Source: Candidatus Wolfebacteria bacterium
Lineage (GTDB): Bacteria; Patescibacteriota; Minisyncoccia; UBA6257; UBA9933
Length of the DNA: 64,000 nucleotides
NCBI GenBank assembly: GCA_016188075.1
Contig: JACPIO010000025.1
Coordinates: 3,579-67,578 of the forward strand
Direction: 5' to 3'
Of the stretch, positions 9,710-62,280 are shown piece after piece. Position numbers and translations under genes: made by a program. A model generated the notes under the pieces. It searched no databases and was not told the origin of the DNA. It worked only from the letters and a program-made list of their open reading frames with translations. The first letter of the stretch is position 1, and every line of letters starts with the position of its first letter.

Positions 9710-11395
9710 ATGACAGGGAATTGGAGAGTGGCGAGTTTAATTATCATCTTTAGCCTTATCTATTCTTTTTTAATTTTTAATATTTACAATCTCCAGTTCG
9801 AAAAGAGAGTTTACTATTTGAGTTTGGCGGAAGCGCGGGATGAAGCCGGCGGAGTCTTGAAAGCCGAGCGGGGAAATATTTATTTTACCGATAAAAACGG
9901 CACTGCCATTCAGGCGGTTTTGAACAAAGAATATCCGATAATTTACGCCGTCCCCGCTGAAGTTCAGAGAAACGCCGATCAACGCGGATTCGGAACGCGG
10001 ATTTACGCGGAGCAATTAGAAACGATATTGGGTATCTCTGCTTCCGAATTAGAAAAAAAATTAGTTAAACCGAATGACGAATATGAACTTCTTGTCGAGA
10101 AAGCAACCGCCGAGCAGGTGGCGGCGATGAAGAGGTTGGATATTAAGGGTATCTATGTCAAAAATGAATTGCTTCGATTTTATCCCTTTGGCGATTTGGC
10201 GGCGCATCTTTTGGGTTTTGTTTCGCCGGCGAGCGACAAAGAAGACTCGCCTTCCGGGGAGGCGGAGTTTGGTCGGTACGGAGTCGAACTTTATTTTAAT
10301 AAGTTTTTAGCCGGACAGAACGGAACGCTTAAGGACGATAAACTGATTGAATCCGAAAAAGGAAAAGATTTGTTTTTGACGATTGATCGGAGTATCCAAT
10401 CCGAAGCCGAAGAAATTCTGAAAAATTTGGTTCAAGAAAAAGAAGCGGAGGCAGGGACGGTCATCGTCGAAGAGCCGAAAACCGGGAAAATTTTGGCCAT
10501 GGCTAATTTTCCCAATTTTGATCCAAATAATTATTCCGGATTTGGGGTGGGTAAATTTTTAAATCCGGCCACGGAGGCGGTTTACGAACCGGGTTCGATT
10601 TTTAAGATATTCACGATGGCCGCCGGCATTGACAGCGGGAAAATTACGCCGGAGACGGAATACACGGATACCGGCAGCGTTACTTTTAACGGGAAAACAA
10701 TAAAAAACTGGGATTTGAAAGCGCACGGCAGGCAAACCATGACCGGCGTGATTGAGCAATCCATAAACACCGGCGCGGTTTTTGCCGAAAGAAAAACCGG
10801 TCATGATATTTTTTATACTTACTTGAATAAATTCGGGTTAAGCGAGCCGACTAAAATTCAGTTGCCCGGAGAAGTGTCGGGCAATCTTAAGAATCTAAAA
10901 AACGGCCGCGACATTGATTTTGCAACGGCCTCTTTTGGCCAGGGAGTTGCCGTTACGCCGATTGAATTGGTGAACGCCGCCTCCGTCGTAGCCAATGGAG
11001 GGCTTCTTATGAGACCTTACATCTTGAAAAATGAAGAGCCGAAAGTAGTGCGCCGAGTTTTAAAAGAAGAGACCAGTCGAGCTGTTCGAGAAATGATGAC
11101 TTCGGCAGTTGTAAAAAACAAATTGGCGGCCATTCCCAATTATAACGTGGCTGGGAAAACCGGAACCGCTTTTGTGCCGGATTTCAAACGCGGCGGATAT
11201 ACCGATGAAGTTATAAACACCTACATTGGTTTTGCTCCGGCTTCGGATCCCCGTTTTATAATTTCCGTAAAGTTGGAAAAGCCGGCCGGTAGTCCTTTGG
11301 CTGGCCAGACCGTGGTGCCGGCTTTCCGGGCGCTCGCCGAATTTATTTTGAATTACTACAATATACCGCCGGATAAATTAGACCAACATCAATGA
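9710..11395 (+). CDS. ftsI: peptidoglycan transpeptidase FtsI / PBP
   Basis: 561 aa; SxxK (GSIFKIF), SxN (SINTGAV) and KTG(T) motifs. Confidence 0.85.
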   Translation: MTGNWRVASLIIIFSLIYSFLIFNIYNLQFEKRVYYLSLAEARDEAGGVLKAERGNIYFTDKNGTAIQAVLNKEYPIIYAVPAEVQRNADQRGFGTRIYAEQLETILGISASELEKKLVKPNDEYELLVEKATAEQVAAMKRLDIKGIYVKNELLRFYPFGDLAAHLLGFVSPASDKEDSPSGEAEFGRYGVELYFNKFLAGQNGTLKDDKLIESEKGKDLFLTIDRSIQSEAEEILKNLVQEKEAEAGTVIVEEPKTGKILAMANFPNFDPNNYSGFGVGKFLNPATEAVYEPGSIFKIFTMAAGIDSGKITPETEYTDTGSVTFNGKTIKNWDLKAHGRQTMTGVIEQSINTGAVFAERKTGHDIFYTYLNKFGLSEPTKIQLPGEVSGNLKNLKNGRDIDFATASFGQGVAVTPIELVNAASVVANGGLLMRPYILKNEEPKVVRRVLKEETSRAVREMMTSAVVKNKLAAIPNYNVAGKTGTAFVPDFKRGGYTDEVINTYIGFAPASDPRFIISVKLEKPAGSPLAGQTVVPAFRALAEFILNYYNIPPDKLDQHQ

Positions 11396-12785: not shown

Positions 12786-12845
12786 CATAAATTTTTGATA
12801 CTACATCGAGGATCCTCGATACGACATCAAAATTAAAATTTTGGT

Positions 12846-12905
12846 CGTATCGGGAGACATCACGTTCTCAACGTGGGGACCCGGGTTCAAATCCCGGTGA
12901 GAGCA
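12846..12905 (+). other. 5'-truncated tRNA-like sequence (D-arm onward, anticodon loop ttCTCaa, good T-arm and 3' acceptor tgagagc-a) lacking a matching 5' acceptor strand
   Basis: well-formed anticodon and T arms but nothing adjacent pairs with the 3' acceptor; a separate tRNA 5'-fragment-like sequence (gcgctttcgtctagtggtcaag) lies at 12665-12690. Confidence 0.4.
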
Positions 12906-14222: not shown

Positions 14223-14729
14223 ATGAAGGGAATTTTGGATCAGTTGGGGGTCAATTGGCGGCTCCTTTTAACGCAAGGAGTCAATTTTTTTATTTTGCTC
14301 GCGGTTCTTACTTTTTTGGCGTATCGGCCTCTTATTCGAATAATGGAAGAGCGCCGAAAAAAAATTGAGCTTGGATTAAAAGCCGGGGAAGAAGGGGAAA
14401 AACGGTTAAAACACATCGAAGAATTGAAAGCCGAAAAACTGGCCCAAGCCGAAAGATCCAGCTTGAGCCTTATTTCCCGGGCCGAAGAAAAAGCCAAAAA
14501 AGAAGCCGGGGTGATTGTCAAAAATTCCGAAGCCAAAGCCAAGACGATTCTGGAAGAGGCTGTGGATTTAGCCCAAAGAAAAAAAATGGAAGAATTGGAA
14601 AATTTGACTGCCGAGGCCAAAAATATTATAAAGTCGGCCATCGTGAAAACTGTCCAGCTTGATCCGCGTTTGATTGACGAAGCGCTAATTAGTCGGGCAG
14701 TGGAGACGATTAAAAAAGAACGAGTATGA
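14223..14729 (+). CDS. atpF: F0F1 ATP synthase subunit b
   Basis: 168 aa; N-terminal TM then charged coiled coil. Confidence 0.8.
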   Translation: MKGILDQLGVNWRLLLTQGVNFFILLAVLTFLAYRPLIRIMEERRKKIELGLKAGEEGEKRLKHIEELKAEKLAQAERSSLSLISRAEEKAKKEAGVIVKNSEAKAKTILEEAVDLAQRKKMEELENLTAEAKNIIKSAIVKTVQLDPRLIDEALISRAVETIKKERV

Positions 14730-15118
14730 AATACCGCTCCGATTTTTACGCAAAAGCCCTTTTTGCGGCAACGGAAAAAAATCCGGAAGAAACGGAAAAT
14801 ATCATTCGGCGATTTTTCCGTCTACTTAAGAAAACCGGAGATATCAGTCAGTCTCGAAAAATTTTAGAATCGGTGGAAAAATTGGCAGTTAAAAAATCGG
14901 GTGACCGATGGGTAAAAATTGAATACAGCCGGTCAATGGATAAAAGGATGGAATCGAACATCAATAATTATTTTGGCAGCGGTTATCACGTTGAAAATGT
15001 TATCAATCCTTTGCTTATCGCCGGAGTTCGGATCACGATTGATGACGAAGAAGAATTGGATATTTCGCTTGCGAAAAAATTAAGGAAAATGTTTTCCACC
15101 GCTATCCACGAGTATTAA
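14726..15118 (+). CDS. atpH: F0F1 ATP synthase subunit delta (short form)
   Basis: 130 aa; C-terminal OSCP-like motif INPLLIAGVRITIDD; operon position. Confidence 0.65.
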   Translation: MKYRSDFYAKALFAATEKNPEETENIIRRFFRLLKKTGDISQSRKILESVEKLAVKKSGDRWVKIEYSRSMDKRMESNINNYFGSGYHVENVINPLLIAGVRITIDDEEELDISLAKKLRKMFSTAIHEY

Positions 15119-15140
15119 CGAGTGGCTATAGCGGTGAGAA

Positions 15141-15252
15141 CCCAGCACATATCTCACCCTAAGACGTGGTTATACCACCTAAGGAAGGCGATAGCCGACT
15201 TCGTCTACCAGAAGAGGTAATACCCCAAGCAGTGATCGAGATATGTGCTGGG
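15141..15252. mobile_element. ~110-bp element with perfect 15-bp terminal inverted repeats (cccagcacatatctc / gagatatgtgctggg) between atpH and atpA
   Basis: TIRs at 15141-15155 and 15238-15252; TIR sequence related to the 7244-7444 element (shared cacat(a)tctc core). Confidence 0.5.
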
Positions 15253-15315
15253 TGCTCAAATTTATAATTAAATTTATTTAAGGTAAAAAAATATAGAAAT
15301 TTAAATAAATTTGGC

Positions 15316-16851
15316 ATGGCTTTCGAAATTGTCGAAAAACTGAAAAGGGAAATTGAATCTTTTCGGGATGAATCAAAGTGGGAAAGAGTTGGAGAAGTGA
15401 CCGAGGCAGGCGATGGCATTGTTAAGATTTCCGGCCTTCGGAATGCTTTAAGTCAGGAAATCCTTTTGATTGAAACAGCGAAGGGCGAGGCAATCGCCTT
15501 GGCCGTGAACCTCGAGGAAAATTTTATCGGCGCCATTATTTTGGGAGAAGGAGAATCGGTTAAAGTTGGTGATCGGGTTCGCCAGACTGGCCGAGTACTT
15601 TCAATTAAAGCAGGAGATGAACTGATTGGAAGAGTCGTTAATCCTTTGGGCGAACCGCTTGACGGCAAGGGCGTAATTTTTAGAGATAGTCAAAAAGTCA
15701 AAGAATATCCGCTGGAAAAAACCGCGCCGAACGTTCTTCAAAGAGAACCGGTAAAAACGCCGCTCCATACCGGTGTTAAATCTATTGACGCGATGATTCC
15801 GATCGGCCGGGGTCAGCGCGAGCTTTTAATCGGCGATCGGCAAACCGGAAAAACCGCTCTGGCCATTGATACGATTTTAAATCAAAAACAGGATTCGGCC
15901 CGGCATCAGGTAATCTGTATTTACGTGGCCATCGGACAGAAAAATTCCAAAATCGCGAAAATCCTGAAATTACTGGAAGAGTCAGAAGCTTTGAGATATT
16001 CCATCGTTGTTTCGGCCCCGGCTTCTTCTCCGGCCAGCCTCCAGTATCTCGCGCCTTTCGCCGGCTGCGCCATCGGAGAATATTTTATGGATCAGGGGAA
16101 AGACGCTTTGGTTATCTATGACGATCTTGTGAAACACGCCGATGCCTATCGCGAGTTATCTTTGCTTTTGCGCCGGCCGCCGGGACGCGAGGCTTATCCC
16201 GGTGATATTTTTTATCTTCATTCGCGCTTGCTCGAACGCGCCGCCAAGCTGAATAAAGATTACGGCGGCGGCTCGCTCACGGCTATTCCCATAATCGAAA
16301 CCAAACTCGGCGATGTTTCAGCCTATATTCCCACAAACGTTATCTCTATTACTGACGGCCAGATTTATTTGGAATCAAGTCTTTTTTACCAAGGTATTCG
16401 TCCGGCGGTGAACGTCGGTTTATCGGTTTCTCGAGTGGGTTCTTCGGCTCAGACCAAAGCAATGAAAAAAGTGGCGAGCCGTTTGCGGCTCGAACTCGCC
16501 CAATTTCGGGAACTCGCGGCTTTTGTGCAATTTGCTTCGGATTTGGACGAAGCGACTCGTCAAAAAATTCGGCGCGGCGAACTTTTGACGGAAATTTTAA
16601 AGCAAGGCGACGGCGAACCGATTCCTTTCGAAAAACAAGTCGCGATACTTTACGCGGCCCTTAACGGTTTTTTAGACGACGTTGAATTGCAGAAAATGAA
16701 AGAATTTGAAAATAAATTCATTGATTATTTGGAAAAACGTCACGATGAAGATATTTTGGAGTCAATCCGCGAAAGCGGAGAACTCTTGAAAGAAGTCGAA
16801 GACAATCTAAAATCAGCCATATTGGCGTTCAAGAACGCATTTACCCTATAA
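15316..16851 (+). CDS. atpA: F0F1 ATP synthase subunit alpha
   Basis: 511 aa; Walker A GDRQTGKT. Confidence 0.9.
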
Positions 16852-17787: not shown

Positions 17788-19206
<1,419 letters not shown>

Positions 19207-19214
19207 CGTGAAAT

Positions 19215-19454
19215 ATGAATCTAAAAATTATTTCTCTAAAGGGAGCGCAATTTGAAGGCGAGGTGGTCGGTTTCAATGTTAAAACCGCGGCTGGGGAAAT
19301 TACGATTTTGGATCATCATCGGCCGATTATTTCCTCCCTGATTTTGGGCGCGGCGGTCATCATCGGGAAAGACGAGAATCGTCAAGCAATGCCCATTAAG
19401 TCCGGTTTTTTAGAGATGGACAAAAAAAATAATTTAACCGTCCTTATTGATTGA
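19215..19454 (+). CDS. atpC: F0F1 ATP synthase subunit epsilon (N-terminal beta-sandwich domain only)
   Basis: 79 aa; operon position. Confidence 0.7.
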   Translation: MNLKIISLKGAQFEGEVVGFNVKTAAGEITILDHHRPIISSLILGAAVIIGKDENRQAMPIKSGFLEMDKKNNLTVLID

Positions 19455-22771: not shown

Positions 22772-23965
22772 ATGAAATTTTTAAATTCGTTGGAGAAAAA
22801 AAGTCTTGCTGGCGAGATTTGTCTTTTGCGGATGGATTTGGATATTGAAAACACGGACTTACGCGGACTTAACGCTGACTCACACAGACAATTGCCATTC
22901 AGATTAGAAGCGGCTTTGCCGACAATTAAATTTTTGCTCGAAAGAAAAACCAAGGTGGTAATCTTGTCTCATCGCGGTAGGCCGCGGTCTGGGATATACG
23001 CGGATAGACGCAGAAAAGAATTCTCCCTGAAGCCGTTTGTGAAGATTTTAGCGTCCTTATTGAAACGCCCCATCTATTTTATCGATTTTAAAAATCTTAC
23101 GAGGCTTAGCCTCGTAAGATTGAAAAATGTTGTTAGAGACTCCGCCCCGGGCGCTATTTTTCTTTTGGAAAATTTAAGATTTTTGAAGGGTGAAATGGAA
23201 AACGACAAAAAATTCGCGAAACAATTGGCGTCGCTGGGAAGTTTTTACGTAAACGATGCTTTCGGCGTCAGTCATCGGGCGAACGCTTCAGTCGAAGCCA
23301 TTACTCATTTTTTGCCTTCATACGCCGGTTTGCACATGGAAAAAGAATTAGAAAAACTGAATGGGTTGACGAAAAAAGCGAAACGGCCATTCGTGATTAT
23401 TCTCGGCGGTTCGAAAACTCACGATAAACTGCCGCTTATAAAAAATTTATGGAATAAAGCGGATTATTTTCTTTTGGGCGGCGGGGTTGCCAATACTTTT
23501 TTCGCGGCTCAAGGATTGCTGATCGGAGATTCCTTGCGTGGAGACAGCGCGGAACTGCGCGGAATACTGCGCGGAATTACGCGGAAAGAATTATCACGAA
23601 AAGTTATCTTGCCAGTTGATGTTGCGATTAAGGATAGAAAAATTTTGGATATCGGACCGAAAACAGTTAAAAGATTCGGCGAAATTATAAAGAAAGCGAA
23701 AACGATTATTTGGAACGGGCCAATGGGATTGATTGAGGATCCGCGATTTGCCAAGGGTTCGGCGGAGGTGGCACGATTTATTTCTCAAAGCCGCGCTTTC
23801 TCTGTTGTTGGTGGAGGAGAAACTACCTCTCTAATTACCAATTACCAATTACCAATTACCAAAAGAAATATTTTTCTTTCTACCGGCGGCGGCGCGATGC
23901 TCGAATATCTGGCGGGCAAGAAATTACCGGGCATAGAGGTGTTGAAAAAGTCTACTGTCGACTGA
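22772..23965 (+). CDS. pgk: phosphoglycerate kinase carrying in-frame repeat-derived segments
   Basis: ILSHRGRP, FYVNDAFGVSHRANAS, GGGVANTF and STGGGAMLEY motifs; ATG at 22772 (the track ORF from 22706 overlaps tRNA-Gly); 10-aa insert NLTRLSLVRL from the 29-bp palindrome. Confidence 0.85.
   Translation: MKFLNSLEKKSLAGEICLLRMDLDIENTDLRGLNADSHRQLPFRLEAALPTIKFLLERKTKVVILSHRGRPRSGIYADRRRKEFSLKPFVKILASLLKRPIYFIDFKNLTRLSLVRLKNVVRDSAPGAIFLLENLRFLKGEMENDKKFAKQLASLGSFYVNDAFGVSHRANASVEAITHFLPSYAGLHMEKELEKLNGLTKKAKRPFVIILGGSKTHDKLPLIKNLWNKADYFLLGGGVANTFFAAQGLLIGDSLRGDSAELRGILRGITRKELSRKVILPVDVAIKDRKILDIGPKTVKRFGEIIKKAKTIIWNGPMGLIEDPRFAKGSAEVARFISQSRAFSVVGGGETTSLITNYQLPITKRNIFLSTGGGAMLEYLAGKKLPGIEVLKKSTVD
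22851..22885. repeat. ACGCGGA-type array inside pgk (encodes TDLRGLNADSH)
   Basis: units acacggactt, acgcggactta, acgctgactc. Confidence 0.5.
23093..23121. repeat. palindromic element copy 3 (aatcttacgaggc-tta-gcctcgtaagatt) in-frame inside pgk
   Basis: 13-bp arms; about 10 extra residues relative to E. coli Pgk at this position. Confidence 0.75.
23545..23590. repeat. ACGCGGA-type array inside pgk (encodes SAELRGILRGITRKE)
   Basis: gcgcggaact, gcgcggaatact, gcgcggaattac, gcggaaag. Confidence 0.6.
23831..23855. repeat. ccaattac x3 tandem repeat inside pgk (encodes ITNYQLPIT)
   Basis: reverse complement of the taattggtaatt family at 12631-12660. Confidence 0.5.
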
Positions 23966-25905: not shown

Positions 25906-26394
25906 ATGGATATTTTTTCTCACGCCCTTTTAGGAGCAGCGGTTGTCAATAACAAAGAACTGCTTTTGCCGGCGTTTTTATTCGGTGCCGGGCCGGATTT
26001 AATTAGCGGTATTCCGGTATGGACAGCCACGATTTATAGATTACGAAAAGAAAAGAAATCCTGGAGAGAAATTAGAAGATTTTTTTGTGATCCCCACAAC
26101 TGGCAGAGCGCGCCGGCCTGGACGCATACGTTTTATATCTATTTGCACAGCCTGCTTTTCGCTATTTTACTTTCTTGGTTTATTTATTATTTTTACCCGC
26201 CGTGGCTGATTTTAATGCGGGCTTGGTTTCTGCATATAATTCTGGATATTCCGACACACAAGGACTGGTTTGCTCACAAGCCGTTTTATCCGTTTAGCAA
26301 TCGAAATTTTGGTTTATTTAATTGGTTCGAAACGCCGCTTCTTTATCTGGGCGTTTTGATTTCGGCTGTAATTTTCGGGTTAGTGTATTTTTAG
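25906..26394 (+). CDS. hypothetical membrane protein
   Basis: 162 aa; several TM helices. Confidence 0.5.
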   Translation: MDIFSHALLGAAVVNNKELLLPAFLFGAGPDLISGIPVWTATIYRLRKEKKSWREIRRFFCDPHNWQSAPAWTHTFYIYLHSLLFAILLSWFIYYFYPPWLILMRAWFLHIILDIPTHKDWFAHKPFYPFSNRNFGLFNWFETPLLYLGVLISAVIFGLVYF

Positions 26395-26491
26395 CTTTTA
26401 TCATTGACTTTTTAATTTTTTTCTTATACCCTGTATTTAATCGGCAAGTCAGGCGATTACTGTCGTGCCTCACTATCGTTCGGCGCAAAAA

Positions 26492-26572
26492 AATACGAAT
26501 TTAACACGAAAAATACGAATGCCACGAATAAATTGATTCGTATCATTCGTGTAATTTCGTAGATTCGTATTA
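26492..26572. repeat. palindromic TACGAA/TTCGTA periodic array inserted in the P3 stem-loop of RNase P RNA
   Basis: lies between P3 strands gtcgtgcctc (26463-26472) and gaggcacga (26593-26601), making P3 about 135 nt. Confidence 0.6.
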
Positions 26573-26816
26573 TGTAAGTGGCGAGCGGCAGCGAGGCACG
26601 ATGGAGGAAAGTCCGGACACTCTCCCGATGAAAATCGGGATAAACAAGTAGCGGCTAACAGCCGTCGTCCAGCTTAGCGGGATAGAGGTGCGAGCAGTGA
26701 CGTCCCGAGACGAAAGTCGAGGGAGAGCCCGATCCCAAGCTTGACGGCTTAACTCTGCGATAGGGATAAGAAAGCAGAGGTGAAACGGCTAAATCCTTAC
26801 TGGGTGCAAGGTTGTG

Positions 26817-26844
26817 CCGAGCACATAACGCTTTATGTGCTCGG
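26817..26844. repeat. palindrome ccgagcacataacgc-tttatgtgctcgg inside rnpB (second copy at 56353-56380)
   Basis: near-identical 28-bp hairpin upstream of rpmA. Confidence 0.6.
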
Positions 26845-27009
26845 AATACCGCTAGAGCCTAAGAGTAATCGACGGCCCAGATAAATTATCGCCACCCCCC
26901 ACCACTTTTGAAAAAAAGTGGTGGGGGGACAGAATCCGGCTTATGACTTGCCGATTTTTTGTTTGTTAAACTAATTAGTGATTTTCGCCCATTGCGCTAT
27001 AATTTAAAA

Positions 27010-27840
27010 ATGGGTAGGAGGAATATCACAATTAAAGCTAACCAGCTTCGGGATTTGTATTTACGAAAAGAGTTCACGGCTGCCCAAATTGCAAACGTCC
27101 TTCAATGTACTGACGTTACTGTATTAAACAAACTTCATTATTATGGAATCAAAGTTAACCGGCCAGGTAGAAGAAATTTTAAATATAAAAAATTCCCATT
27201 TGACGGTAACTTATTAGAAAAATCCTACATGATGGGATTTCGTATGGGAGATTTAAATGTTTATCGACCAAAAAATAAGTTATCACGGATCTTTGTTGTT
27301 CGATGCCATACTACTTCTAAAGATCAATTAGGTGTTTTCCAAAAAATTTTCTTTAGGTATGGACATTCAACCGTTTCGGTTTCCCCTGATAATTCTTACC
27401 ACGTAAATTGCTATTTAGACCATTCCTTCATTTTTCTACTGGATAAAAGTAAAATTCCACAATGGATTGGGGAGGCTCCAAATCTCGGTTGGTCGTTTAT
27501 GGCGGGATACTGCGACGCCGAGGGTTCTTTTGGAATAGATCAAGGACGAGGAAGATTTAAAATTGATAGCTACGATTATTTTATTTTGAGGTGGATTAAA
27601 AAATTTTTAGATAAGAACCAAATAAAAAGTAAATTTAGATGTATATATAAACAAGGTAGTTTGCGTAAAGATGGGACGTTGTGGAATAATAATTTGTGGC
27701 GACTCAATATAAATACTGCATTATCGTTGGAGACATTCGTAAGATCTATTTTGCCTTTCTCGTTGCATAAAAAAAGAGTTAAAGATGCTAATAAAGTTTT
27801 AAGAAATATTAAAGTAAGAAGAGAAAATGGAACAATTTGA
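27010..27840 (+). CDS. LAGLIDADG-family homing-endonuclease-like protein with N-terminal HTH; AT-rich
   Basis: FMAGYCDAEGSFG (LAGxxDxEG) plus degenerate first motif MMGFRMGDLNV; ATG 27010 preceded by tataat (track ORF starts at TTG 26959); overlaps the lepA start. Confidence 0.5.
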   Translation: MGRRNITIKANQLRDLYLRKEFTAAQIANVLQCTDVTVLNKLHYYGIKVNRPGRRNFKYKKFPFDGNLLEKSYMMGFRMGDLNVYRPKNKLSRIFVVRCHTTSKDQLGVFQKIFFRYGHSTVSVSPDNSYHVNCYLDHSFIFLLDKSKIPQWIGEAPNLGWSFMAGYCDAEGSFGIDQGRGRFKIDSYDYFILRWIKKFLDKNQIKSKFRCIYKQGSLRKDGTLWNNNLWRLNINTALSLETFVRSILPFSLHKKRVKDANKVLRNIKVRRENGTI

Positions 27841-36583: not shown

Positions 36584-38293
36584 ATGCATCTAACCAAGGA
36601 AAATCTTAAAAAAATAATTTCCGAATCGGGCTTGGTAAGCGATGAGGATCTGCGGGTTGCCGAAAACGAGTCTTTTCGGTCGGGACAGACCTTAACAGAT
36701 GTTTTAATAGGCCGGGGCGCGCTCTCCGAACAGCTTTTGGTTGAATCTCTTTCGGATTTTTTTAAGGTTCCGATTGTTCAGCTCGAAAAACGTCGTATCG
36801 ATCGGGCCGTTCTGGAGCTCGTTCCCGAATCTTACGCGAAAAGCAAAGAGGTTGTCCTTTTTGAAATTGATGAAAATTTGAGAGAAGGCTCTTTGGCGAT
36901 GGCCGATCCCAATAATTTCGAAGTCATAAATCATCTCTCTTTAATGCTCGACCTCCGCCGGTTCAACGTTTATTTGACTACGGCATCCAGTCTTAAATTC
37001 GCCCTGAAATTTTACAAGCAGGAAATCAGCGAAGAATTTTCCAAAATCATTGAAGAGAATATTCAGGCTACGAGGGGTTTCGGCGGCACGGCGAGCGTCG
37101 GTAAATTAGCGGAATCGATTCCGATTATCAAAATTTTAGACAGCGTGATCGAGCATGCTGCCTCGCTGGGCGCCTCGGACATCCACTTTGAACCTTTCGA
37201 AGACAAACTTCTCGTGCGGTATCGTCTGGACGGCATTCTCGAGGAAATACTTTCTCTTTCCAAAGAGATAGCTCCGATACTGGTTGCCCGCATCAAAGTA
37301 ATCGCCAATCTTCAAATTGACGTTCATAACGCGCCGCAGGACGGCAGATTTCGTCACTCGCTGGAGAATCAGTTTATTGATATTCGCGTCTCGGTTGTTC
37401 CGACCTTCCACGGAGAAAAGGCGGAAATGCGGTTGCTCAAGGGATCGCTTCGGCCTCTTTCTTTGTCGGAGCTGGGATTATCCCACTCTGATTTGGAGAA
37501 ATTGACCCAAGCCATCAAAAAGCCGCATGGCTTAATTTTGGTTACCGGTCCCACTGGTTCCGGAAAAACCACGACTTTGTACGCCATTTTAGAAATTTTA
37601 AACACTCCTCGAGTTAACATTACCACCATTGAAGATCCGGTGGAGTACGAAATTCCTCGAGTGAATCAGATTCAGGTGAACGTGAAAACCGGTCTTACTT
37701 TCGCAAGCGGTCTGCGGACGATTGTCAGGCAAAATCCGGATATCGTGATGATTGGCGAAATCCGCGATCCGGAAAGCGCCGATATCGCCATTAACGCCGC
37801 CCTAACCGGCCACCTTCTGCTCTCGACGCTTCACACCAATGATGCTCCGGGCGCCGTGAGTCGACTCATAGATCTTAATGTCCAGCCGTTCCTTTTAGCC
37901 TCAACTCTCAATATGGTAATTGCCCAACGGCTCGTGAGGAGGCTGTGCAAGATTTGCGTTTCCAGTCGAACTCTTGATCCAAAAGACCAAAATACTTTGG
38001 AAAAGCAAGTGAAAGAACTGGGTTTAAATAGCGAAATTATTCCTAAGATGGTTTATGCCGCCAAGGGCTGTTCAGCATGTAGCTTCGCCGGCTATCAAGG
38101 TCAGGTCGGGATATTTGAAATTTTTAATCTAAGCGATGCCATAAGGGATCTTATAATGGAAAATGCCTCGACTCAAGCAATTAGGAAAAAAGCCCGAGAA
38201 GAAGGGATGCGAACGCTTTTTGAAAACGGAATGGAAAAGGTGACAGCTGGTTTTACTTCGCTAGAGGAAGTACTGCGGGTGGCAAGCGAATAG
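36584..38293 (+). CDS. pilB: type IV pilus assembly ATPase PilB/GspE
   Basis: Walker A GPTGSGKTTT; GspE N-domain; Asp/His boxes; ATG 36584 (track TTG start 36557 lies inside the cassette's right IR). Confidence 0.85.
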   Translation: MHLTKENLKKIISESGLVSDEDLRVAENESFRSGQTLTDVLIGRGALSEQLLVESLSDFFKVPIVQLEKRRIDRAVLELVPESYAKSKEVVLFEIDENLREGSLAMADPNNFEVINHLSLMLDLRRFNVYLTTASSLKFALKFYKQEISEEFSKIIEENIQATRGFGGTASVGKLAESIPIIKILDSVIEHAASLGASDIHFEPFEDKLLVRYRLDGILEEILSLSKEIAPILVARIKVIANLQIDVHNAPQDGRFRHSLENQFIDIRVSVVPTFHGEKAEMRLLKGSLRPLSLSELGLSHSDLEKLTQAIKKPHGLILVTGPTGSGKTTTLYAILEILNTPRVNITTIEDPVEYEIPRVNQIQVNVKTGLTFASGLRTIVRQNPDIVMIGEIRDPESADIAINAALTGHLLLSTLHTNDAPGAVSRLIDLNVQPFLLASTLNMVIAQRLVRRLCKICVSSRTLDPKDQNTLEKQVKELGLNSEIIPKMVYAAKGCSACSFAGYQGQVGIFEIFNLSDAIRDLIMENASTQAIRKKAREEGMRTLFENGMEKVTAGFTSLEEVLRVASE

Positions 38294-50998: not shown

Positions 50999-52144
50999 TC
51001 ACATTTCAACGGGTTTCCCGCCTTCAATCTGAATTTTTTTCAATTTCAACACCGACGCGCGAGTCGGTGCTCCGACTCCTTCGGGACGTCGGAGTTTTCC
51101 GTTAATTAATTCCGCCTCCAAAATTTTTATTCTTTGAGGTCCACCCTTCGACGGGCTCAGGGTAAATACTCCTGGTTCGGGATTTAAAGCCCGAATTTTC
51201 CGCTCTATTTGAATCGCGATTTCTCCGCCCTCGCTCCGCGCGTTTTCTAAATCCGCTGGTTCAATAAAAGCATCTTCAGTTTTGAATTTTTTGGTATAGG
51301 TGGCTCGCGATTCGTCTTGGGGTGTGAGGTTCAATCTCCCAAATATTGACTCTAATTCATGAGGAGATTGAACCTCCCGAAATTGATTCAAAAATTCCAC
51401 CAGTAAATCGCCGCCCAATTCCGCCAATTTCCGCATTAGCGATTCATAATTCATAATTCCTAATTCATAATTCTCAAGCGCTTTTTGCGCGAGAACTGGT
51501 CCGTGATCCACTTTTTCATCCATTAAAAAAAGCGTTACGCCGGTTTCTTTTTCGCCGTTCAAAATCGCGGACTGAATAGGGGAGGGGCCGCGGTATTTTG
51601 GCAAGAGCGACGGATGAATTCCGATTGAGCCGAGCCGCGGAATCTCCAAAATTTCTTTGGGAAGAATTTTCGCGTAAGCGGCAACTACAAAGAAATCATA
51701 TTCCCGATATAATAAATTTGCCGTGGGTCCGGAATGGTTCGGGTTCGGGATTGACACCCGAGACCCCGGGGCTCGATTCCCCGCGGATCCACGGTCTTCT
51801 GATTTATCCACAAGGGGGCTTGACAACTGGTCATCGTTTAATATACTAATGTTAGGTGTCAATCCCGGATTTCTCGAATCATTCGAGGTTTCGGCAAAAG
51901 CCCCGTTTAAAGCGGGGTTTTTGGTTTTTAAATTTTCTGGTTGCCAAACCGGGATATCGTATTTTTGAGCAATAATTTTGGTAGGGGGTGATGTCAGTAT
52001 CTTTTTTCTTCCCACTGGCCGGTCGGGATTGCAAACAACCACTCCCGGCGCGAAACCGGCTTTAATCAATCTCTCCAAAATAATGGCGGCGAACTCAGGA
52101 GTACCGAAGAATACGAAATTTGGATTACGAAAATACGAAATCAT
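50999..52144 (-). CDS. fmt: methionyl-tRNA formyltransferase carrying two in-frame inserts
   Basis: FGTPEFA, HPSLLPKYRG, C-terminal domain; 381 aa versus about 315; about 65-aa GC-rich insert between the VWQP and VVAAYAKIL blocks (DNA 51721-51925); ENYELGIMNYES encoded by the 8-bp array. Confidence 0.85.
   Translation of the reverse strand: MISYFRNPNFVFFGTPEFAAIILERLIKAGFAPGVVVCNPDRPVGRKKILTSPPTKIIAQKYDIPVWQPENLKTKNPALNGAFAETSNDSRNPGLTPNISILNDDQLSSPLVDKSEDRGSAGNRAPGSRVSIPNPNHSGPTANLLYREYDFFVVAAYAKILPKEILEIPRLGSIGIHPSLLPKYRGPSPIQSAILNGEKETGVTLFLMDEKVDHGPVLAQKALENYELGIMNYESLMRKLAELGGDLLVEFLNQFREVQSPHELESIFGRLNLTPQDESRATYTKKFKTEDAFIEPADLENARSEGGEIAIQIERKIRALNPEPGVFTLSPSKGGPQRIKILEAELINGKLRRPEGVGAPTRASVLKLKKIQIEGGKPVEM
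51442..51473. repeat. 8-bp periodic array (attcataattcataattcctaattcataattc) in-frame in fmt
   Basis: same family as 19166-19206. Confidence 0.6.
51721..51925. mobile_element. ~200-bp GC-rich MITE-like element inserted in-frame in fmt, containing a plus-strand tRNA-like fold and 12-bp inverted repeats
   Basis: IR gggattgacacc (51747-51758) / ggtgtcaatccc (51855-51866); tRNA-like at 51725-51791 (acceptor gggtccg/cggatcc, anticodon arm tcggg-attgaca-cccga, T-arm cgggg-ctcgatt-ccccg, no D-arm); hairpin + T-run ccccgtttaaagcggggttttt at 51901-51922. Confidence 0.55.
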
Positions 52145-52160
52145 ACGAAAAATACGAAAT
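52110..52160. repeat. TACGAA periodic array at one end of the GxxExxY unit (overlaps the fmt N-terminus)
   Basis: atacgaaat, ttacgaaaa, tacgaaatca, tacgaaaaa, tacgaaatt. Confidence 0.6.
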
Positions 52161-52570
52161 TATTTTATATTGACTACTCTTTTAAATTTTACTCCTGATT
52201 TTGTAAATCTAGCTAGTATTCCTAATTTTAAATTCGTTGATTTTAAATAATTATAAATTTGCTCTATGTCTTTTTTACTAAAAACATTTCCTTGTTTAAT
52301 TTCTAAAACTATCTTTCCTTCAATTAAAAAATCTAAATAAATTGTTGTAATAAAATTATTTCTATAATTTATTCTAATTGGTAGTTCTTTTTCGTAATTA
52401 ATATTGGATTTTTTAAAGGCAATTTCTATGGCTTTTTGATATTGATTTTCTTTATAGCCAAAACCCAATTCTAAAAATACATCAAAAAGAACACCAATTA
52501 TCTGATAACTAAGTTCAGGATATAGTAAATCGGGGTTGTAAACTTTATTGTTTTTCGTACTTTCGTACAT
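52160..52570 (-). CDS. free-standing GxxExxY / PD-(D/E)XK nuclease-like protein
   Basis: LSYQIIGVLFDVFLELGFGYKENQYQKAIEIAF ... DFLIEGKIVLEIK; inserted between def and fmt. Confidence 0.7.
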   Translation of the reverse strand: MYESTKNNKVYNPDLLYPELSYQIIGVLFDVFLELGFGYKENQYQKAIEIAFKKSNINYEKELPIRINYRNNFITTIYLDFLIEGKIVLEIKQGNVFSKKDIEQIYNYLKSTNLKLGILARFTKSGVKFKRVVNIK

Positions 52571-53099
52571 TTTCGTACTTTCGTAAGTTCTTACATTTAT
52601 CGATGTACAAAATTCCATTTAGGTGGTCTACTTCATGTTGAAAAACTTTAGCCAAAAGTCCCCAGGCTTTGATTTTGATTTTTTTAGCGTTTTTATCCTG
52701 GCCGACAAGAGTAATTTTTTCCGGGCGTTCCACGTCGCCGTAATATCCTCCGGGCACGCTTAAGCAACCTTCTTCCATTAAGGTTTTTTTATCGGAGGTT
52801 TTTATTATTTTCGGATTAAAAATAGCGTAAAACTTCTGGTCTTCCGAGGTCACTGAATTAGCGCTTCGTCGCGAGGTGGCCCTTACTTGCGCCACAAATA
52901 CTCGCATATCAAGGCCGATTTGATTGGCAGCTAATCCGATCCCATCCGCCTCAATCATTTTCTCTTTCATTTCTTTTACCATCGCATTAATTTCTTTCTT
53001 GCTATATTTAGTAAAATCAAAATTCGCCGTCTGCCTGCGCAAAAATTTTTCTTCTGCCTTGTTATCTCTTGTTAAAATTTTTAAATTTTGATTTGGCAT
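52545..53099 (-). CDS. def: peptide deformylase
   Basis: GIGLAANQIG, EGCLSVPG, HEVDHLNG; start taken at MPNQ (53099); the track ORF extends to 53177 through a repeat-rich region. Confidence 0.85.
   Translation of the reverse strand: MPNQNLKILTRDNKAEEKFLRRQTANFDFTKYSKKEINAMVKEMKEKMIEADGIGLAANQIGLDMRVFVAQVRATSRRSANSVTSEDQKFYAIFNPKIIKTSDKKTLMEEGCLSVPGGYYGDVERPEKITLVGQDKNAKKIKIKAWGLLAKVFQHEVDHLNGILYIDKCKNLRKYENVRKYEKQ
52553..52590. repeat. TTCGTA periodic array at the other end of the GxxExxY unit (inverted orientation)
   Basis: ttcgtactttcgtacattttcgtactttcgtaag. Confidence 0.6.
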
Positions 53100-56352: not shown

Positions 56353-56380
56353 CCGAGCACATAATGCGTTATGTGCTCGG
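56353..56380. repeat. palindrome ccgagcacataatgc-gttatgtgctcgg (copy of the element inside rnpB)
   Basis: near-identical to 26817-26844; followed by a T-run. Confidence 0.6.
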
Positions 56381-61794: not shown

Positions 61795-61880
61795 TCGATG
61801 CGAATATACGAATTATACTAATGATACGAATTTTATTCGTATAATTCGTACATTTGTATATTGGTATCGATACGCGCGAA
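61795..61880. promoter_or_regulatory. palindromic TACGAA/TTCGTA array upstream of groES (candidate operator; no CIRCE present)
   Basis: perfect IR tacgaattatac (61807-61818) / gtataattcgta (61839-61850) plus flanking gtatcgat repeats. Confidence 0.45.
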
Positions 61881-61885
61881 GCGAT

Positions 61886-62176
61886 ATGAATTTTAAACCG
61901 CTTTCTAATCATATTTTTCTCGAGCCGGTGGAGGAGGAAAAAACCACTAAATCCGGCATTGTGCTTCCGGAGACCGCCGAGAAAGAAAAACCCATTAAGG
62001 GCAGGGTCATCGCGGTTGGTCCGGGAAAGTTGAACGAAAAAGGCGAACGCATGCAGATGTCCGTCAAGGTCGGCGATATGGTTTTATTCAAAAAATACGG
62101 ACCCGACGAAATCGAAATTGAAGCAAAGAAATATTTAGTCGGAGACGAAGAAGATATACTTGCGATAATCGAGTAA
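61886..62176 (+). CDS. groES: co-chaperonin GroES
   Basis: 96 aa; GIVLPE, mobile loop, KVGD. Confidence 0.9.
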   Translation: MNFKPLSNHIFLEPVEEEKTTKSGIVLPETAEKEKPIKGRVIAVGPGKLNEKGERMQMSVKVGDMVLFKKYGPDEIEIEAKKYLVGDEEDILAIIE

Positions 62177-62180
62177 TCGC

Positions 62181-62260
62181 TCATACGAAAATACGAAAAC
62201 ATACGAAATTTCGAAAAATAAATTTTAATTTCGTACATTCGTAAAATTTCGTACTTTCGT
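62181..62260. repeat. palindromic TACGAA array in the groES-groEL spacer
   Basis: tacgaaaatacgaaaacatacgaaatttcgaaaa ... tttcgtacattcgtaaaatttcgtactttcgtaag. Confidence 0.6.
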
Positions 62261-62280
62261 AAGAGTGAGCGACAGCGAAC

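What the first reader, a model, noticed from the sequence alone, without database searches (positions are those of the whole stretch)
26441..26953. RNase P RNA enlarged by insertion of repeat-family elements into its stem-loops
rnpB is recognisable from its P4 strands (GGAGGAAAGTCCGGAC / ACAGAATCCGGCTTA) and P1 pairing, but spans about 510 nt. The P3 hairpin (gtcgtgcctc ... gaggcacga) encloses an approximately 80-nt palindromic TACGAA/TTCGTA array (26492-26572). A 28-bp palindrome (ccgagcacataacgctttatgtgctcgg, 26817-26844) has a near-identical copy upstream of rpmA (56353-56380). A further hairpin, ccaccccccaccac-ttttgaaaaaaa-gtggtggggggac (26893-26930), sits just before the P4 3' strand. The same repeat families that invade proteins also sit in tolerated loops of an essential ribozyme.
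Basis: partly seen in the sequence, partly recalled or inferred. Interest (0 to 1): 0.55.

Follow-up and report, generated by a model that had tools for sequence, protein, structure and literature searches.

The report
Repeat-expanded RNase P RNA gene
This is the RNase P RNA gene of a candidate-phyla-radiation (CPR) bacterium, about 170 bases longer than in its closest relatives because hairpin-forming repeat elements, of kinds that elsewhere in the genome flank small nuclease genes, sit at the tips of its outer helices.

Summary
Window 26439-26956 (+) is rnpB, a 518-nt class A-type RNase P RNA of a CPR/Paceibacteria-like genome. Rfam scores it only 64.5 bits (threshold 100) because the model cannot span a 145-nt P3. 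Relatives with 88% identical cores but short P3 score 102-162 bits. Covariation over 23 relatives supports every core helix.

- **P3** carries a 4+4-unit palindromic (T/C)ACGAA array that the closest relatives lack.
- **The C-rich hairpin** occupies the optional P19 site.
- **The 28-bp palindrome** is not an extra insert. It is P16/P17 itself.

Even so, the palindrome and the P19 hairpin belong to hairpin families that occupy different helices in different relatives. One of them encloses a GIY-YIG nuclease gene inside P3 of a relative.

In the window, arrays with the P3 unit flank a GxxExxY nuclease gene. A GC-rich version flanks the same domain inserted in-frame in LepA.

CPR RNase P helix extensions (Lui 2021) and repeats in rnpB (cyanobacterial STRR) are already known, so this is a new member of a known kind. 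The link to nuclease cassettes is new as far as I could find. Whether the insert is retained or excised from the RNA is untested.

The parts
26439..26956 (+). rnpB, RNase P RNA, class A-derived, 518 nt
   Evidence: RF00010 E = 3e-19 at 64.5 bits. Core is 88% identical to L216, which scores 161.8 bits. Covariation on 23 sequences: 94.5% of cells paired against 32-44% for slid controls.
26439..26451 (+). P1 5' strand; pairs with 26944-26956
   Evidence: 13 bp, 100% complementary (I7). Conserved in relatives, 100% paired (helix 1).
26452..26458 (+). P2 5' strand; pairs with 26887-26893. J2/3 is the single A at 26459
   Evidence: helix 2: 96% paired, 4 pairs change on both sides. A single-nucleotide J2/3 is the bacterial criterion (PMC1874661).
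26460..26604 (+). P3, 145 nt: base stem 26460-26471 / 26593-26604 plus a lineage-specific extension 26472-26592
   Evidence: Single hairpin, -69 kcal/mol, z = -10.2. Base pairs covary (helix 3). P3 is 18-35 nt in 19 of 23 relatives.
26494..26569 (+). Palindromic array inside P3: 4 forward (T/C)ACGAA units and 4 reverse units, 8-11 nt apart
26603..26618 (+). Conserved P4 5' strand; pairs 26609-26611 and 26613-26617 with 26935-26942; U26612 bulged
   Evidence: Invariant in all 23 sequences, 100% paired (helix 4).
26618..26622 (+). P5 5' strand; pairs with 26802-26806
   Evidence: helix 5.
26623..26640 (+). Post-P5 hairpin (P5.1 position), UCCCGAU-GAAA-AUCGGGA, variably present
   Evidence: Fold z = -3.3. 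Present in 14 of 23 relatives and absent from the closest, L216, L212 and L206.
26647..26682 (+). P7 5' strand (26647-26650, pairs with 26798-26801), P8 hairpin (26651-26665) and P9 hairpin (26668-26682, 5 nt longer than in relatives)
   Evidence: helices 6-8. The Logan strain's variant 26671 A to C repairs the A.G mismatch in P9.
26686..26797 (+). Specificity-domain core: P10, J11/12 module, P12 (26703-26724), two hairpins (26726-26749 and 26753-26779), GUGAAAC module
   Evidence: helices 9-12 and 14. Sequence motifs are shared by CPR relatives.
26732..26767 (+). Loop-loop pairing AUCCC (26732-26736) with GGGAU (26763-26767) between the two S-domain hairpins
   Evidence: helix 13: 97% paired, and all 5 pairs change on both sides.
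26810..26850 (+). P15-P16/P17; the 28-bp 'family A' palindrome 26817-26844 forms P16/P17
   Evidence: Covariance-model placement. 35/35 identical in L216 and L212. Fold z = -6.5.
26857..26876 (+). P18 hairpin with GUAA loop
   Evidence: helices 17-18.
26895..26928 (+). P19-site hairpin ('family B'), CCCCCCACCACUUUU / AAAAGUGGUGGGGGG
   Evidence: 15 bp perfect (I2), z = -6.2. A hairpin is present at this site in 13 of 23 relatives. The same arms form P19 in L196, P16/17 in L215 and P3 in L209.
26929..26956 (+). P4 3' strand (26929-26943) and P1 3' strand (26944-26956), followed by a T-run
56353..56380 (.). Second copy of the family A palindrome, 62 nt upstream of rpmA (minus strand)
   Evidence: L27 by Pfam. 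A promoter-like site at 56436-56408 (minus strand) would put it in the rpmA leader, while on the + strand it looks like a terminator.
52105..52600 (-). GxxExxY / PDDEXK_3 nuclease gene (52160-52618, minus) between def and fmt, bracketed by inverted arrays of the P3 unit (52125-52150 / 52561-52586)
   Evidence: Pfam 1e-27, TIGR04256 2e-27, inverted repeats 85% complementary.
61799..61860 (.). ORF-less palindromic array of the P3 unit, upstream of groES
   Evidence: (z = -6.2).
62176..62272 (.). ORF-less palindromic array of the P3 unit in the groES-groEL spacer, with outer stem TCGCTCA / TGAGCGA
   Evidence: (z = -6.9).
28029..28480 (+). In-frame GxxExxY / PDDEXK_3 domain in LepA (aa 86-199), bracketed by inverted GC-type arrays 28029-28067 / 28442-28480
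   Evidence: Pfam 3e-33, TIGR04256 1e-36, 39-nt inverted repeat 77% complementary.
28838..28909 (+). ORF-less palindromic GC-type array translated in-frame in LepA (TQINADQNADKRGYISVNQRGNPRESA); a second one at 29207-29242
36273..36585 (+). GIY-YIG nuclease ORF (36273-36551) bracketed by 22-nt inverted repeats
   Evidence: Pfam 1e-17. Inverted repeats 95% complementary (I22). 45% identical to the ORF inside P3 of L209's rnpB.

Best explanation
**Shown.** Window 26439-26956 is the RNase P RNA gene of a CPR (Paceibacteria-like) bacterium. The conserved catalytic and specificity core is intact. The molecule is about 170 nt longer than its closest relatives (346 nt) because of four extras at the outer ends of peripheral helices:
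- a roughly 125-nt extension of P3 built from a 4+4 palindromic array of ~10-nt (T/C)ACGAA units
- an 18-nt hairpin after P5
- 5 nt in P9
- a 34-nt hairpin at the optional P19 site

P16/P17 is occupied by a 28-bp palindrome of normal size. The P3 array, the P19 hairpin and the P16/P17 palindrome each belong to families that occur at other genomic sites or in other helices of relatives' rnpB.

**Inferred.**
- These are selfish or semi-selfish palindromic DNA elements. Arrays and hairpins of the same kinds bracket small nuclease genes (GxxExxY PD-(D/E)XK, GIY-YIG), so the P3 insert is most likely an ORF-less copy or relic of such a cassette.
- The inserts are tolerated because each folds back on itself as a stable coaxial extension of a helix that points away from the P4 active site. 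P1-P2-P3 base pairing and all conserved junctions stay unchanged.
- The enzyme most likely works as an ordinary class A RNase P. Whether the extension stays in the mature RNA or is trimmed is unknown.
For: **Identity**
- RF00010 matches at E = 3e-19.
- Relatives with 84-88% identical cores pass the Rfam threshold at 102-162 bits. Those with large P3 inserts fall to 60-82 bits, as the window does.
- The hand structure on 23 sequences gives 94.5% paired cells against 32-44% for slid controls. 65 of 101 pairs change on both sides, and the covariation score is 0.43 against about 0.09.
- Every column that is invariant across the 23-sequence alignment, which includes the window, carries the same base here.
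- The only strain-level difference (26671 A to C) repairs a mismatch in P9.

**Insertions**
- The P1-to-P4 distance is 165 nt here against 35-60 nt in most of about 100 CPR genes.
- L216 and L212 have a 19-nt P3, no post-P5 hairpin and no P19.

**Families**
- There are six clusters of the P3 unit in the window.
- TACGAA occurs 36 times against 19 expected.
- Family A and B arms sit in different helices in different relatives.
- 32 pairs of segments from different genes and different helices share an 11-mer, against 0.66 expected from shuffles (maximum 4).
- L208 and L209 are 97% identical in the core, yet P3, the post-P5 hairpin and P16/17 are unrelated.

**Nuclease link**
- A GIY-YIG ORF (1e-18) lies inside the family B P3 hairpin of L209.
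- A GxxExxY gene is bracketed by arrays of the P3 unit.
- The same domain sits in-frame in LepA, bracketed by GC-type arrays, at the identical site in 3 of about 15 relatives.
- A GIY-YIG ORF is bracketed by 22-nt inverted repeats at 36273.

**Real DNA**
- Four independent assemblies carry the insert.
Against: - No expression or activity data exist.
- Only 64 kb of the genome is visible, so a second RNase P (another rnpB or a protein-only enzyme) cannot be excluded.
- The window's rnpB fails Rfam's gathering score.
- The nuclease link is an association seen in four cassettes. No empty-versus-filled site pair with target duplications was found, apart from a possible 7-9 nt duplication in L202.
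- The P3 insert itself has no ORF.
- Family A is far more frequent inside rnpB than elsewhere in the DNA sampled. It is 35/35 identical between genes whose cores differ by 12%. Both facts would also fit a functional hairpin.
- The protein-invading arrays use a different unit from the P3 array.
- Part of the 'covariation' in P3 and P16/17 reflects replacement by another palindrome rather than compensatory substitution.
Confidence: 0.75

Rival explanations
1. Intervening-sequence model. The long P3 duplex, and by analogy the ORF-bearing P3 of L209, is cut out of the primary transcript by RNase III without religation, as for 23S rRNA intervening sequences. The mature RNase P RNA would then be two pieces, a roughly 30-nt 5' piece and a roughly 360-nt 3' piece, held together by P1, P2 and the P3 base. 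This is compatible with the selfish-element origin and differs only in the fate of the RNA.
For: - The P3 extension is a roughly 55-bp imperfect duplex replacing a terminal loop.
- Its distribution among close relatives is sporadic.
- A relative has an ORF in the loop, as some rRNA intervening sequences do (PMC4990558 abstract).
- CPR rRNA genes carry many short non-intron insertions at the top or base of stem-loops, some encoding GIY-YIG proteins, which the authors suggest are RNase III-type intervening sequences (PMC11270868).
Against: - No RNA data.
- No RNase III gene lies in the 64-kb window, which is uninformative for the genome.
- The duplex is interrupted by many bulges.
- To my knowledge no natural two-piece bacterial RNase P RNA has been reported.
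Confidence: 0.2
2. Functional-module model. The recurrent hairpins, family A above all, are not selfish DNA but binding sites for a lineage-specific protein or structural stabilisers. They would have been recruited into RNase P RNA to compensate for tertiary contacts lost in CPR (no P6, altered P13/P14, no GGU in L15). The P3 extension would be a scaffold.
For: - Family A is identical (35/35) in genes whose cores differ by 12%.
- It is much denser in rnpB than in flanking DNA.
- It recurs 62 nt upstream of rpmA in the window and of rplU in L214, with similar spacers.
- In L208 and L209 two hairpins of one gene are near-identical.
Against: - The closest relatives lack the P3 extension, the post-P5 hairpin and P19 altogether.
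- Different families occupy the same helix in near-identical genes (L208 and L209).
- Within-gene hairpin similarity is not above the between-gene level overall (1.9% vs 1.25% of pairs).
- The P3 unit also fills the groES-groEL spacer and brackets a nuclease gene.
Confidence: 0.15
3. In-situ growth model. The arrays are not inserted. They grow where they are, by replication slippage or template switching at hairpin tips, and unit sequences are homogenised genome-wide by mutation bias.
For: - Unit number and spacing vary between arrays.
- Tandem-repeat insertions in cyanobacterial rnpB (Vioque 1997, cited through) are usually seen this way; that reading is from my own knowledge.
Against: - The same unit occurs at six unrelated loci.
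- Arrays come as inverted pairs bracketing nuclease genes.
- Whole hairpins are swapped between near-identical genes.
- L202 has a different unit type on the same P3 base stem.
Confidence: 0.15
4. The gene is a disrupted pseudogene, or the insert is an assembly chimera.
For: The gene scores below Rfam's threshold.
Against: - Four independent assemblies agree.
- All invariant core positions are retained and all helices are intact.
- The single strain variant improves a helix.
- Other relatives carry comparable inserts.
Confidence: 0.03

Closest known systems
Diverged RNase P RNAs of CPR bacteria (Lui et al. 2021, PMC8172020)
   Same: Both are class A-derived RNAs that fall below Rfam cut-offs and need manual refolding. 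Both show large helix extensions, missing or altered P13/P14/P16/P17, and no UGG/GGU CCA-binding motif. Here J16/15 is AAU and only 1 of 3 tRNA genes encodes CCA.
   Different: That paper illustrates an extended P15 and missing helices. It does not report what the extensions are made of. Here the extension is in P3 and consists of a genome-wide palindromic repeat. P16/17 and P18 are present.
STRR repeats inside rnpB of heterocyst-forming cyanobacteria (Vioque 1997, Nucleic Acids Res 25:3471; cited, paper not held)
   Same: A genome-wide short-repeat family lies inside the RNase P RNA gene and enlarges a peripheral helix without destroying the enzyme.
   Different: From my own knowledge, STRR are tandem heptamers in P12. 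Here the units are about 10 nt, arranged as forward plus reverse sets forming a perfect hairpin, in P3, and they are associated with nuclease genes.
Rickettsia palindromic elements (RPE)
   Same: RPEs are short palindromic repeats that invade non-coding DNA, protein-coding genes in-frame, and RNA genes. R. felis has 728 RPEs, 85 in ORFs and 3 in RNA genes (PMC1166351).
   Different: RPEs are single elements of about 100-150 bp with no known associated nuclease gene (my knowledge). Here the elements are arrays of 10-nt units in two compositional flavours, AT-rich in non-coding DNA and GC-rich in ORFs, and some copies carry GxxExxY or GIY-YIG ORFs.
Intervening sequences and non-intron insertions in rRNA genes, including those of CPR (Tsurumaki et al. 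2024, PMC11270868; Coxiella IVS, PMC4990558)
   Same: These are stem-forming insertions at the tips of peripheral helices of an essential structured RNA. They are sporadically distributed, some carry an ORF (GIY-YIG in CPR), and many are short and ORF-less.
   Different: They are described for 16S/23S rRNA, and RNase P is not mentioned in that paper (0 occurrences). Excision by RNase III is untested here.
Ssn GIY-YIG single-strand nucleases with their hairpin repeats (NTS/SRM; Chenal et al. 2025, PMC11893778)
   Same: A small single-domain GIY-YIG gene is flanked on both sides by a hairpin-forming repeat that is dispersed in the genome.
   Different: The window has no match to the SRM search pattern. 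The window's GIY-YIG protein matches UPF0213 (PDB 1zg2, E = 6e-6) rather than a demonstrated Ssn member. No link to RNA genes or in-frame protein insertions is described there.

Membership tests
Bacterial RNase P RNA, class A (Rfam RF00010) | Score at or above Rfam's gathering threshold (100 bits) | tested here: not met
   64.5 bits, E = 3e-19, and missed in the gathering scan. Homologues with 84-88% identical cores and short P3 score 102-162 bits. The shortfall is caused by the P3 insert, since the model deleted P3 and misplaced P1/P2.
Bacterial RNase P RNA, class A (Rfam RF00010) | Universally conserved P4 pseudoknot strands with the bulged U | tested here: met
   26609-26617 pairs with 26935-26942 and U26612 is bulged. 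Invariant and 100% paired in 23 sequences.
Bacterial RNase P RNA, class A (Rfam RF00010) | Helices P1, P2, P3, P5, P7-P10, P12, P15 and P18 in class A order, supported by covariation | tested here: met
   94.5% paired, 65 of 101 pairs change on both sides, slid controls 32-44%. Model placement of P8, P15-17 and P18.
Bacterial RNase P RNA, class A (Rfam RF00010) | Single-nucleotide J2/3 (G, rarely A), the bacterial criterion in PMC1874661 | tested here: met
   J2/3 is A26459. Relatives have G.
Bacterial RNase P RNA, class A (Rfam RF00010) | P6 pseudoknot (J5/7 with L17) and the GGU CCA-binding motif in L15 | tested here: not met
   Read directly from the sequence. L17 is a 4-nt loop (CGCU), and J16/15 is AAU with no GG. 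This is consistent with Lui et al., who found 23 of 35 CPR RNAs lacking the motif.
Bacterial RNase P RNA, class A (Rfam RF00010) | Pre-tRNA 5' leader cleavage | not testable with these tools
   Needs an in vitro assay or complementation.
RNase III-excised intervening sequence (IVS) | Stem-forming insertion replacing the terminal loop of a peripheral helix, sporadic among relatives | tested here: met
RNase III-excised intervening sequence (IVS) | Excision from the transcript without religation, giving a fragmented RNA | not testable with these tools
   No RNA data. No rnc gene in the 64-kb window, which says nothing about the rest of the genome.
Dispersed palindromic element (MITE / REP / RPE-like) | Multiple dispersed copies of the same sequence family in one genome | tested here: met
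   Six clusters of the AT-type unit and six of the GC-type unit in 64 kb. Family A is present 2-3 times.
Dispersed palindromic element (MITE / REP / RPE-like) | Presence/absence at orthologous sites among relatives | tested here: met
   Seen for P3, post-P5 and P19, for the LepA insert, and in the swapped hairpins of L208 and L209.
Dispersed palindromic element (MITE / REP / RPE-like) | Target-site duplication or defined insertion boundaries | tested here: inconclusive
   The only hint is L202's P3, where G(U/C)GAGGCAC occurs on both sides of the array. None is visible in the window.
Dispersed palindromic element (MITE / REP / RPE-like) | An autonomous partner encoding the mobilising enzyme | tested here: inconclusive
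   GxxExxY and GIY-YIG genes are bracketed by the same arrays or hairpins. No activity or causal link is shown.
Ssn nuclease / SRM hairpin-repeat system | SRM consensus hairpin repeats in the genome and flanking the gene | tested here: not met
   0 matches to the published search pattern in the window; block shuffles gave a mean of 0.27.
Ssn nuclease / SRM hairpin-repeat system | GIY-YIG protein of subfamily cd10448 | not tested
   No CDD search is available. Pfam gives GIY-YIG only, and the best solved relative is UPF0213 BH0048.
Group I / group II intron | Match to an intron covariance model within the insert | tested here: not met
   A permissive Rfam scan of 26300-27100 at E up to 10 lists no intron family. 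The insert is a simple 121-nt hairpin.
Cyanobacterial STRR insertion in rnpB | Tandem heptanucleotide repeats in P12 (my knowledge of Vioque 1997) | tested here: not met
   Units are 8-11 nt apart, arranged 4 forward plus 4 reverse, in P3. P12 is of ordinary size.

The most novel reading that the evidence does not exclude
The P3 array and the P19 and P16/17 hairpins are the terminal inverted repeats, or ORF-less relics, of a so far undescribed class of CPR selfish cassettes. These cassettes carry a small nuclease (GxxExxY PD-(D/E)XK or UPF0213-type GIY-YIG). They settle, without any splicing machinery, wherever a self-folding insert is harmless:
- helix tips of essential RNAs (rnpB here; a full GIY-YIG copy inside P3 in L209)
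- operon spacers
- surface loops of essential proteins, in-frame with GC-rich units, as in LepA

A corollary is that the P3 duplex may be removed by RNase III, giving a naturally split bacterial RNase P RNA.
Probability: 0.3. Interest if true: 0.75.

Novelty: new member of a known kind. Interest (0 to 1): 0.5.

Why it matters
**Practical.** Standard annotation misses this rnpB. It scores 64.5 bits against a threshold of 100, which would make a CPR genome look as if it lacked RNase P. A lineage model that allows inserts in P3, post-P5, P16/17, P18 and P19 would fix this.

**Biological.** The case gives a sequence-level explanation for the 'helix extensions' reported in CPR RNase P RNAs: they are copies of palindromic repeat families. 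Comparison with relatives shows the outer hairpins of an essential ribozyme being exchanged much faster than its core. L208 and L209 have 97% identical cores and three unrelated hairpins.

**If the nuclease-cassette link holds.** The same element type would explain three features of CPR genomes at once:
- the odd peptide inserts (INADKRG...RVNPRESA) in CPR housekeeping proteins
- the non-intron insertions in CPR rRNA genes
- these RNase P extensions

It would also provide a natural map of where an RNA enzyme and proteins such as LepA tolerate insertions.

Tried and rejected
- **The model's own 5' end.** The covariance model placed P1/P2 at 26584-26603. I rejected this because the true P1/P2 5' strands at 26439-26458 are conserved in all relatives and pair perfectly.
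- **'The palindrome is simply native P16/17, nothing more.'** This was my reading. I revised it when the metagenome relatives showed the same arms in P3, post-P5 and beside P18.
- **Hairpins within one gene are homogenised.** Tested and not supported overall: 1.9% of within-gene pairs share 9 nt or more, against 1.25% between genes. Only L208 and L209 show it.
- **Other rnpB genes with embedded ORFs.** A scan of all fetched loci found only L209 convincing. The other 'long' candidates rest on weak 10-11 nt P1 matches.
- **Ssn/SRM membership.** No SRM motif in the window.
- **SRP RNA at 15122-15262.** No Rfam match at E up to 0.01.
- **Viral-contig scan with the P4 15-mer.** It returned mostly chance hits and unrelated RNase P RNAs.
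- **Consensus sigma-70 promoter for rnpB.** None found by the scanner. TTGACT at 26404-26409 with a weak -10 is only a candidate.
- **Literature.** Searches for GxxExxY mobility, for CPR MITEs and for a fragmented RNase P found nothing directly relevant. The library holds open-access papers only, so absence there is weak evidence.
- **Full-length lineage covariance model.** Not attempted, because a model of about 340 positions exceeds the tool's calibration limit.
Full report
**1. What is at the coordinates**

- GGAGGAAAGTCCGGAC lies at 26603-26618 and ACAGAATCCGGCTTA at 26929-26943.
- A perfect 13-bp inverted repeat, 26439-26451 with 26944-26956, closes the molecule (I7). That gives 518 nt.
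- The stem 26460-26471 / 26593-26604 encloses four forward (T/C)ACGAA units and four reverse units. The whole 145-nt segment folds as one hairpin at -69 kcal/mol, z = -10.2.
- The 28-bp palindrome 26817-26844 recurs at 56353-56380 with differences only in the loop.
- The C-rich hairpin is a perfect 15-bp stem at 26895-26928 (I2).
- The insert is real DNA. Four Logan assemblies from different sequencing runs contain the upstream gene and the next 406-415 nt, all of P3 included, with one substitution. All four contigs end just before the 28-bp palindrome.

**2. Is it rnpB, and where do the extras fall?**

Rfam missed the gene at gathering thresholds. On the region alone, RF00010 matched at 64.5 bits (threshold 100, E = 3e-19). 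It deleted P3 and forced its P1/P2 into the 3' part of the insert.

I collected relatives in two scans.
- The P4-3'/P1-3' 25-mer shared with the best of those hits gave 36 metagenome loci.

Relatives with 84-88% identical cores and ordinary P3 pass Rfam: L216 161.8 bits, L206 135.5, L117 125.7, L210 123.2, L204 119.7, L097 114.1, L196 102.1. Relatives with large P3 inserts fall below threshold as the window does: L209 81.6, L214 81.2, L202 60.5.

A 23-sequence alignment with a hand-placed class A structure gives 94.5% paired cells, against 80% for column shuffles and 32-44% for slid partners. 65 of 101 pairs change on both sides. For P3 and P16/17, part of that signal comes from replacement by a different palindrome, not from compensatory point changes.

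The one strain-level variant (26671 A to C) converts an A.G mismatch in P9 to C-G. J2/3 is a single A, the bacterial pattern.

The covariance model and the alignment place the features as follows.
- The array lies inside P3.
- The 28-bp palindrome is P16/P17 itself.
- The C-rich hairpin lies between the P2 3' strand and the P4 3' strand, the P19 site.

**3. What is extra relative to relatives**

The closest relatives (L216 and L212, 346 nt, core 88% identical) have:
- a 19-nt P3
- no hairpin after P5
- a 14-nt P9, against 19 nt here
- four nucleotides where the window has the 35-nt P19 segment
- a P16/17 segment that is 35/35 identical to the window's

Across about 100 CPR genes the distance from the P1 start to P4 is usually 35-60 nt. 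Here it is 165 nt. In the alignment, 13 of 23 genes have some hairpin at P19 and 14 of 23 have one after P5.

**4. The extras are members of families**

*The P3 unit.* It forms six clusters in the window:
- P3 of rnpB
- an inverted pair at 52112-52159 and 52554-52586
- 57374-57398
- upstream of groES (61799-61881)
- the groES-groEL spacer (62184-62262)

*Family A (CCGAGCACATAA...TTATGTGCTCGG).* It occupies different positions in different genomes:
- P16/17 in the window, L216, L212, L206, L097, L117, L209 and L218
- P3 in L210, L213 and L204
- the post-P5 hairpin in L218, L209 and L202
- beside P18 in L214
- intergenic sites: window 56353, L189:10214 and L214:12125

*Family B (CCCCCCACCACTTTT...).* It is P19 in the window and L196, P16/17 in L215, and P3 in L209.

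*Statistics.* Segments from different helices of different genes share an 11-mer in 32 pairs, against 0.66 expected from shuffles (maximum 4 in 200). L208 and L209, from one metagenome, have cores 97% identical (210/216) and identical P9 and P19. Their P3, post-P5 and P16/17 hairpins are unrelated. Peripheral hairpins therefore turn over far faster than the core.

Other CPR species carry their own palindromic short-unit arrays after P5 (L080, L104, L129), in P15-17 (L155, L127, L195) or in P3 (L096, L102, L104, L127).

**5. Link to nuclease genes**

- In L209, the family B P3 stem encloses 262 nt encoding an 84-aa GIY-YIG protein (Pfam 1e-18) on the rnpB strand.
- In the window, the inverted pair of P3-type arrays brackets a GxxExxY / PDDEXK_3 gene wedged between def and fmt.
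- LepA carries the same domain in-frame at aa 86-199, bracketed by 39-nt inverted arrays of the GC-rich unit ACGCRGA. The insertion sits at the identical site in L214 and L202 and is absent from L196 and about a dozen others.
- LepA also contains two ORF-less palindromic GC-type arrays read in-frame, for example four forward plus three reverse units giving TQINADQNADKRGYISVNQRGNPRESA. This is the protein counterpart of the P3 array.
- A GIY-YIG ORF at 36273-36551, 45% identical to L209's, is bracketed by 22-nt inverted repeats.
- All six AT-type clusters are non-coding or at gene ends. All six GC-type clusters are inside ORFs: RsmH, a penicillin-binding protein, and LepA.
- L202 shows that the GC-type can also sit in P3, on the same P3 base stem as the window's.

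**6. How it most likely works**

*Shown:* an intact class A-type core with self-folding additions at helix tips.

*Inferred from established RNase P structure (my knowledge: coaxial P2/P3 on the face away from the substrate; P19 a known optional helix):* the additions project into solvent and leave catalysis to the ordinary mechanism.

*Inferred from the associations above:* the additions originate from palindromic selfish elements whose full-length forms carry a nuclease gene, and the P3 array is an ORF-less copy.

*Not shown:* mobility, the enzyme responsible, and whether the extension is retained or trimmed from the RNA.

**7. Comparison with what is known**

- Lui et al. 2021 reported that 10 of 35 circularised CPR genomes appeared to lack rnpB until thresholds were lowered. 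Many of the RNAs have large helix extensions or missing helices, and 23 of 35 lack the UGG motif. The window fits this description.
- Repeat families inside rnpB are known from cyanobacteria (Vioque 1997, cited through).
- Rickettsia palindromic elements enter ORFs and RNA genes.
- CPR rRNA genes carry non-intron insertions at stem-loop tips, some encoding GIY-YIG proteins. RNase P is not mentioned in that paper.
- Small GIY-YIG genes flanked by dispersed hairpin repeats are known as the Ssn/SRM system. The window has no SRM motif, and its GIY-YIG protein matches UPF0213.
- I found no paper describing GxxExxY cassettes with arrays, or these hairpin families. The library is open-access only.

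**8. Verdict**

Two corrections apply: the palindrome is P16/17 rather than an added insert, and the P3 unit is the non-coding flavour of the repeat.

The feature in the window is a new member of a known kind. What the comparative work adds is the hairpin exchange among relatives and the nuclease-cassette link. Both rest on sequence association only.

Noticed in passing
window 27827-30196 (LepA), insert 28029-28480: LepA is 789 aa because a GxxExxY / PDDEXK_3 nuclease domain is inserted in-frame between switch I (KMAPVRM.Y) and G3 (YILNLIDTPGH). The insert is bracketed by 39-nt inverted ACGCRGA arrays. The same insertion at the same site occurs in L214 and L202 but not in L196 or about 12 other relatives.
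   Followed up: partly
window 52160-52618 (minus), arrays 52125-52150 / 52561-52586: A free-standing GxxExxY nuclease gene sits between def and fmt, bracketed by inverted arrays of the same unit as the rnpB P3 insert. The arrays run into the annotated ends of both neighbouring ORFs.
   Followed up: partly
window 36273-36585: A 92-aa GIY-YIG ORF is bracketed by 22-nt inverted repeats. The 3' repeat overlaps the start of the downstream 578-aa ORF. The protein is 45% identical to the ORF inside P3 of L209's rnpB.
   Followed up: partly
L209:193-845 (metagenome contig Ga0209542_10137260): A relative's rnpB has a GIY-YIG nuclease gene on the same strand inside its P3 hairpin (15-bp stem, 262-nt loop). 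The primary RNase P transcript would therefore also be an mRNA.
   Followed up: partly
window 26959-27840: A 293-aa ORF with a borderline LAGLIDADG_3 match (22.2 bits, cut-off 22.5) lies between rnpB and lepA and overlaps the lepA start. In L196 and L201 lepA follows rnpB after 37-54 nt. No fetched locus has a homologue of this ORF.
   Followed up: partly
window 56353-56380 and L214:12125-12219: The family A palindrome lies about 62 nt upstream of rpmA (L27) in the window and about 62 nt upstream of rplU (L21) in L214, with similar spacers. A promoter-like site at 56436-56408 (minus strand) would put it in the rpmA leader. It is unexplained why one hairpin is shared by r-protein upstream regions and RNase P RNA.
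   Followed up: partly
window 15122-15262: A 140-nt structured element lies between the ORFs at 14726-15118 and 15316-16851, which look like ATP-synthase delta and alpha subunits by sequence (not Pfam-tested). A 16-bp outer stem, with arms (CCCAGCACATAT...) resembling family A, encloses 88 nt. It folds at -53 kcal/mol, z = -4.9, and has no Rfam match at E up to 0.01.
   Followed up: partly
window 26732-26736 with 26763-26767: The loops of the two S-domain hairpins pair (AUCCC/GGGAU), and all five pairs covary among relatives, for example AUCUC/GAGAU in L208 and L209. This is a lineage-specific tertiary contact in the region where class A has P13/P14.
   Followed up: yes
window 66-101, 202-237, 23088-23123: Another palindromic family, TCTTACGAGGCTTAGCCTCGTAAGA, has three copies (D6/I3/I4).
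   Followed up: no
window 7496-7543, 19158-19221, 51429-51487: A further AT-rich short-unit array family (ATTCATA / TATGAAT units at about 7-nt spacing) occurs at three sites in both orientations (D3/I1/I2).
   Followed up: no
window 8706-8733, 9982-10011, 22849-22878: GC-type ACGCRGA arrays lie inside RsmH (MraW), a penicillin-binding protein, and the phosphoglycerate kinase ORF, where the peptide reads NTDLRGLNADSHR.
   Followed up: partly
window 12842-12897: There is a partial tRNA-like match (31.8 bits, model positions 8-63) 56 nt after tRNA-Glu. ARAGORN does not call it.
   Followed up: partly
L001-L004 (Logan contigs): All four independent assemblies stop at window 26800-26809, just before the 28-bp palindrome. 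Perfect palindromes with a second genomic copy probably break short-read assembly graphs, which may contribute to missing or truncated rnpB in CPR bins.
   Followed up: no
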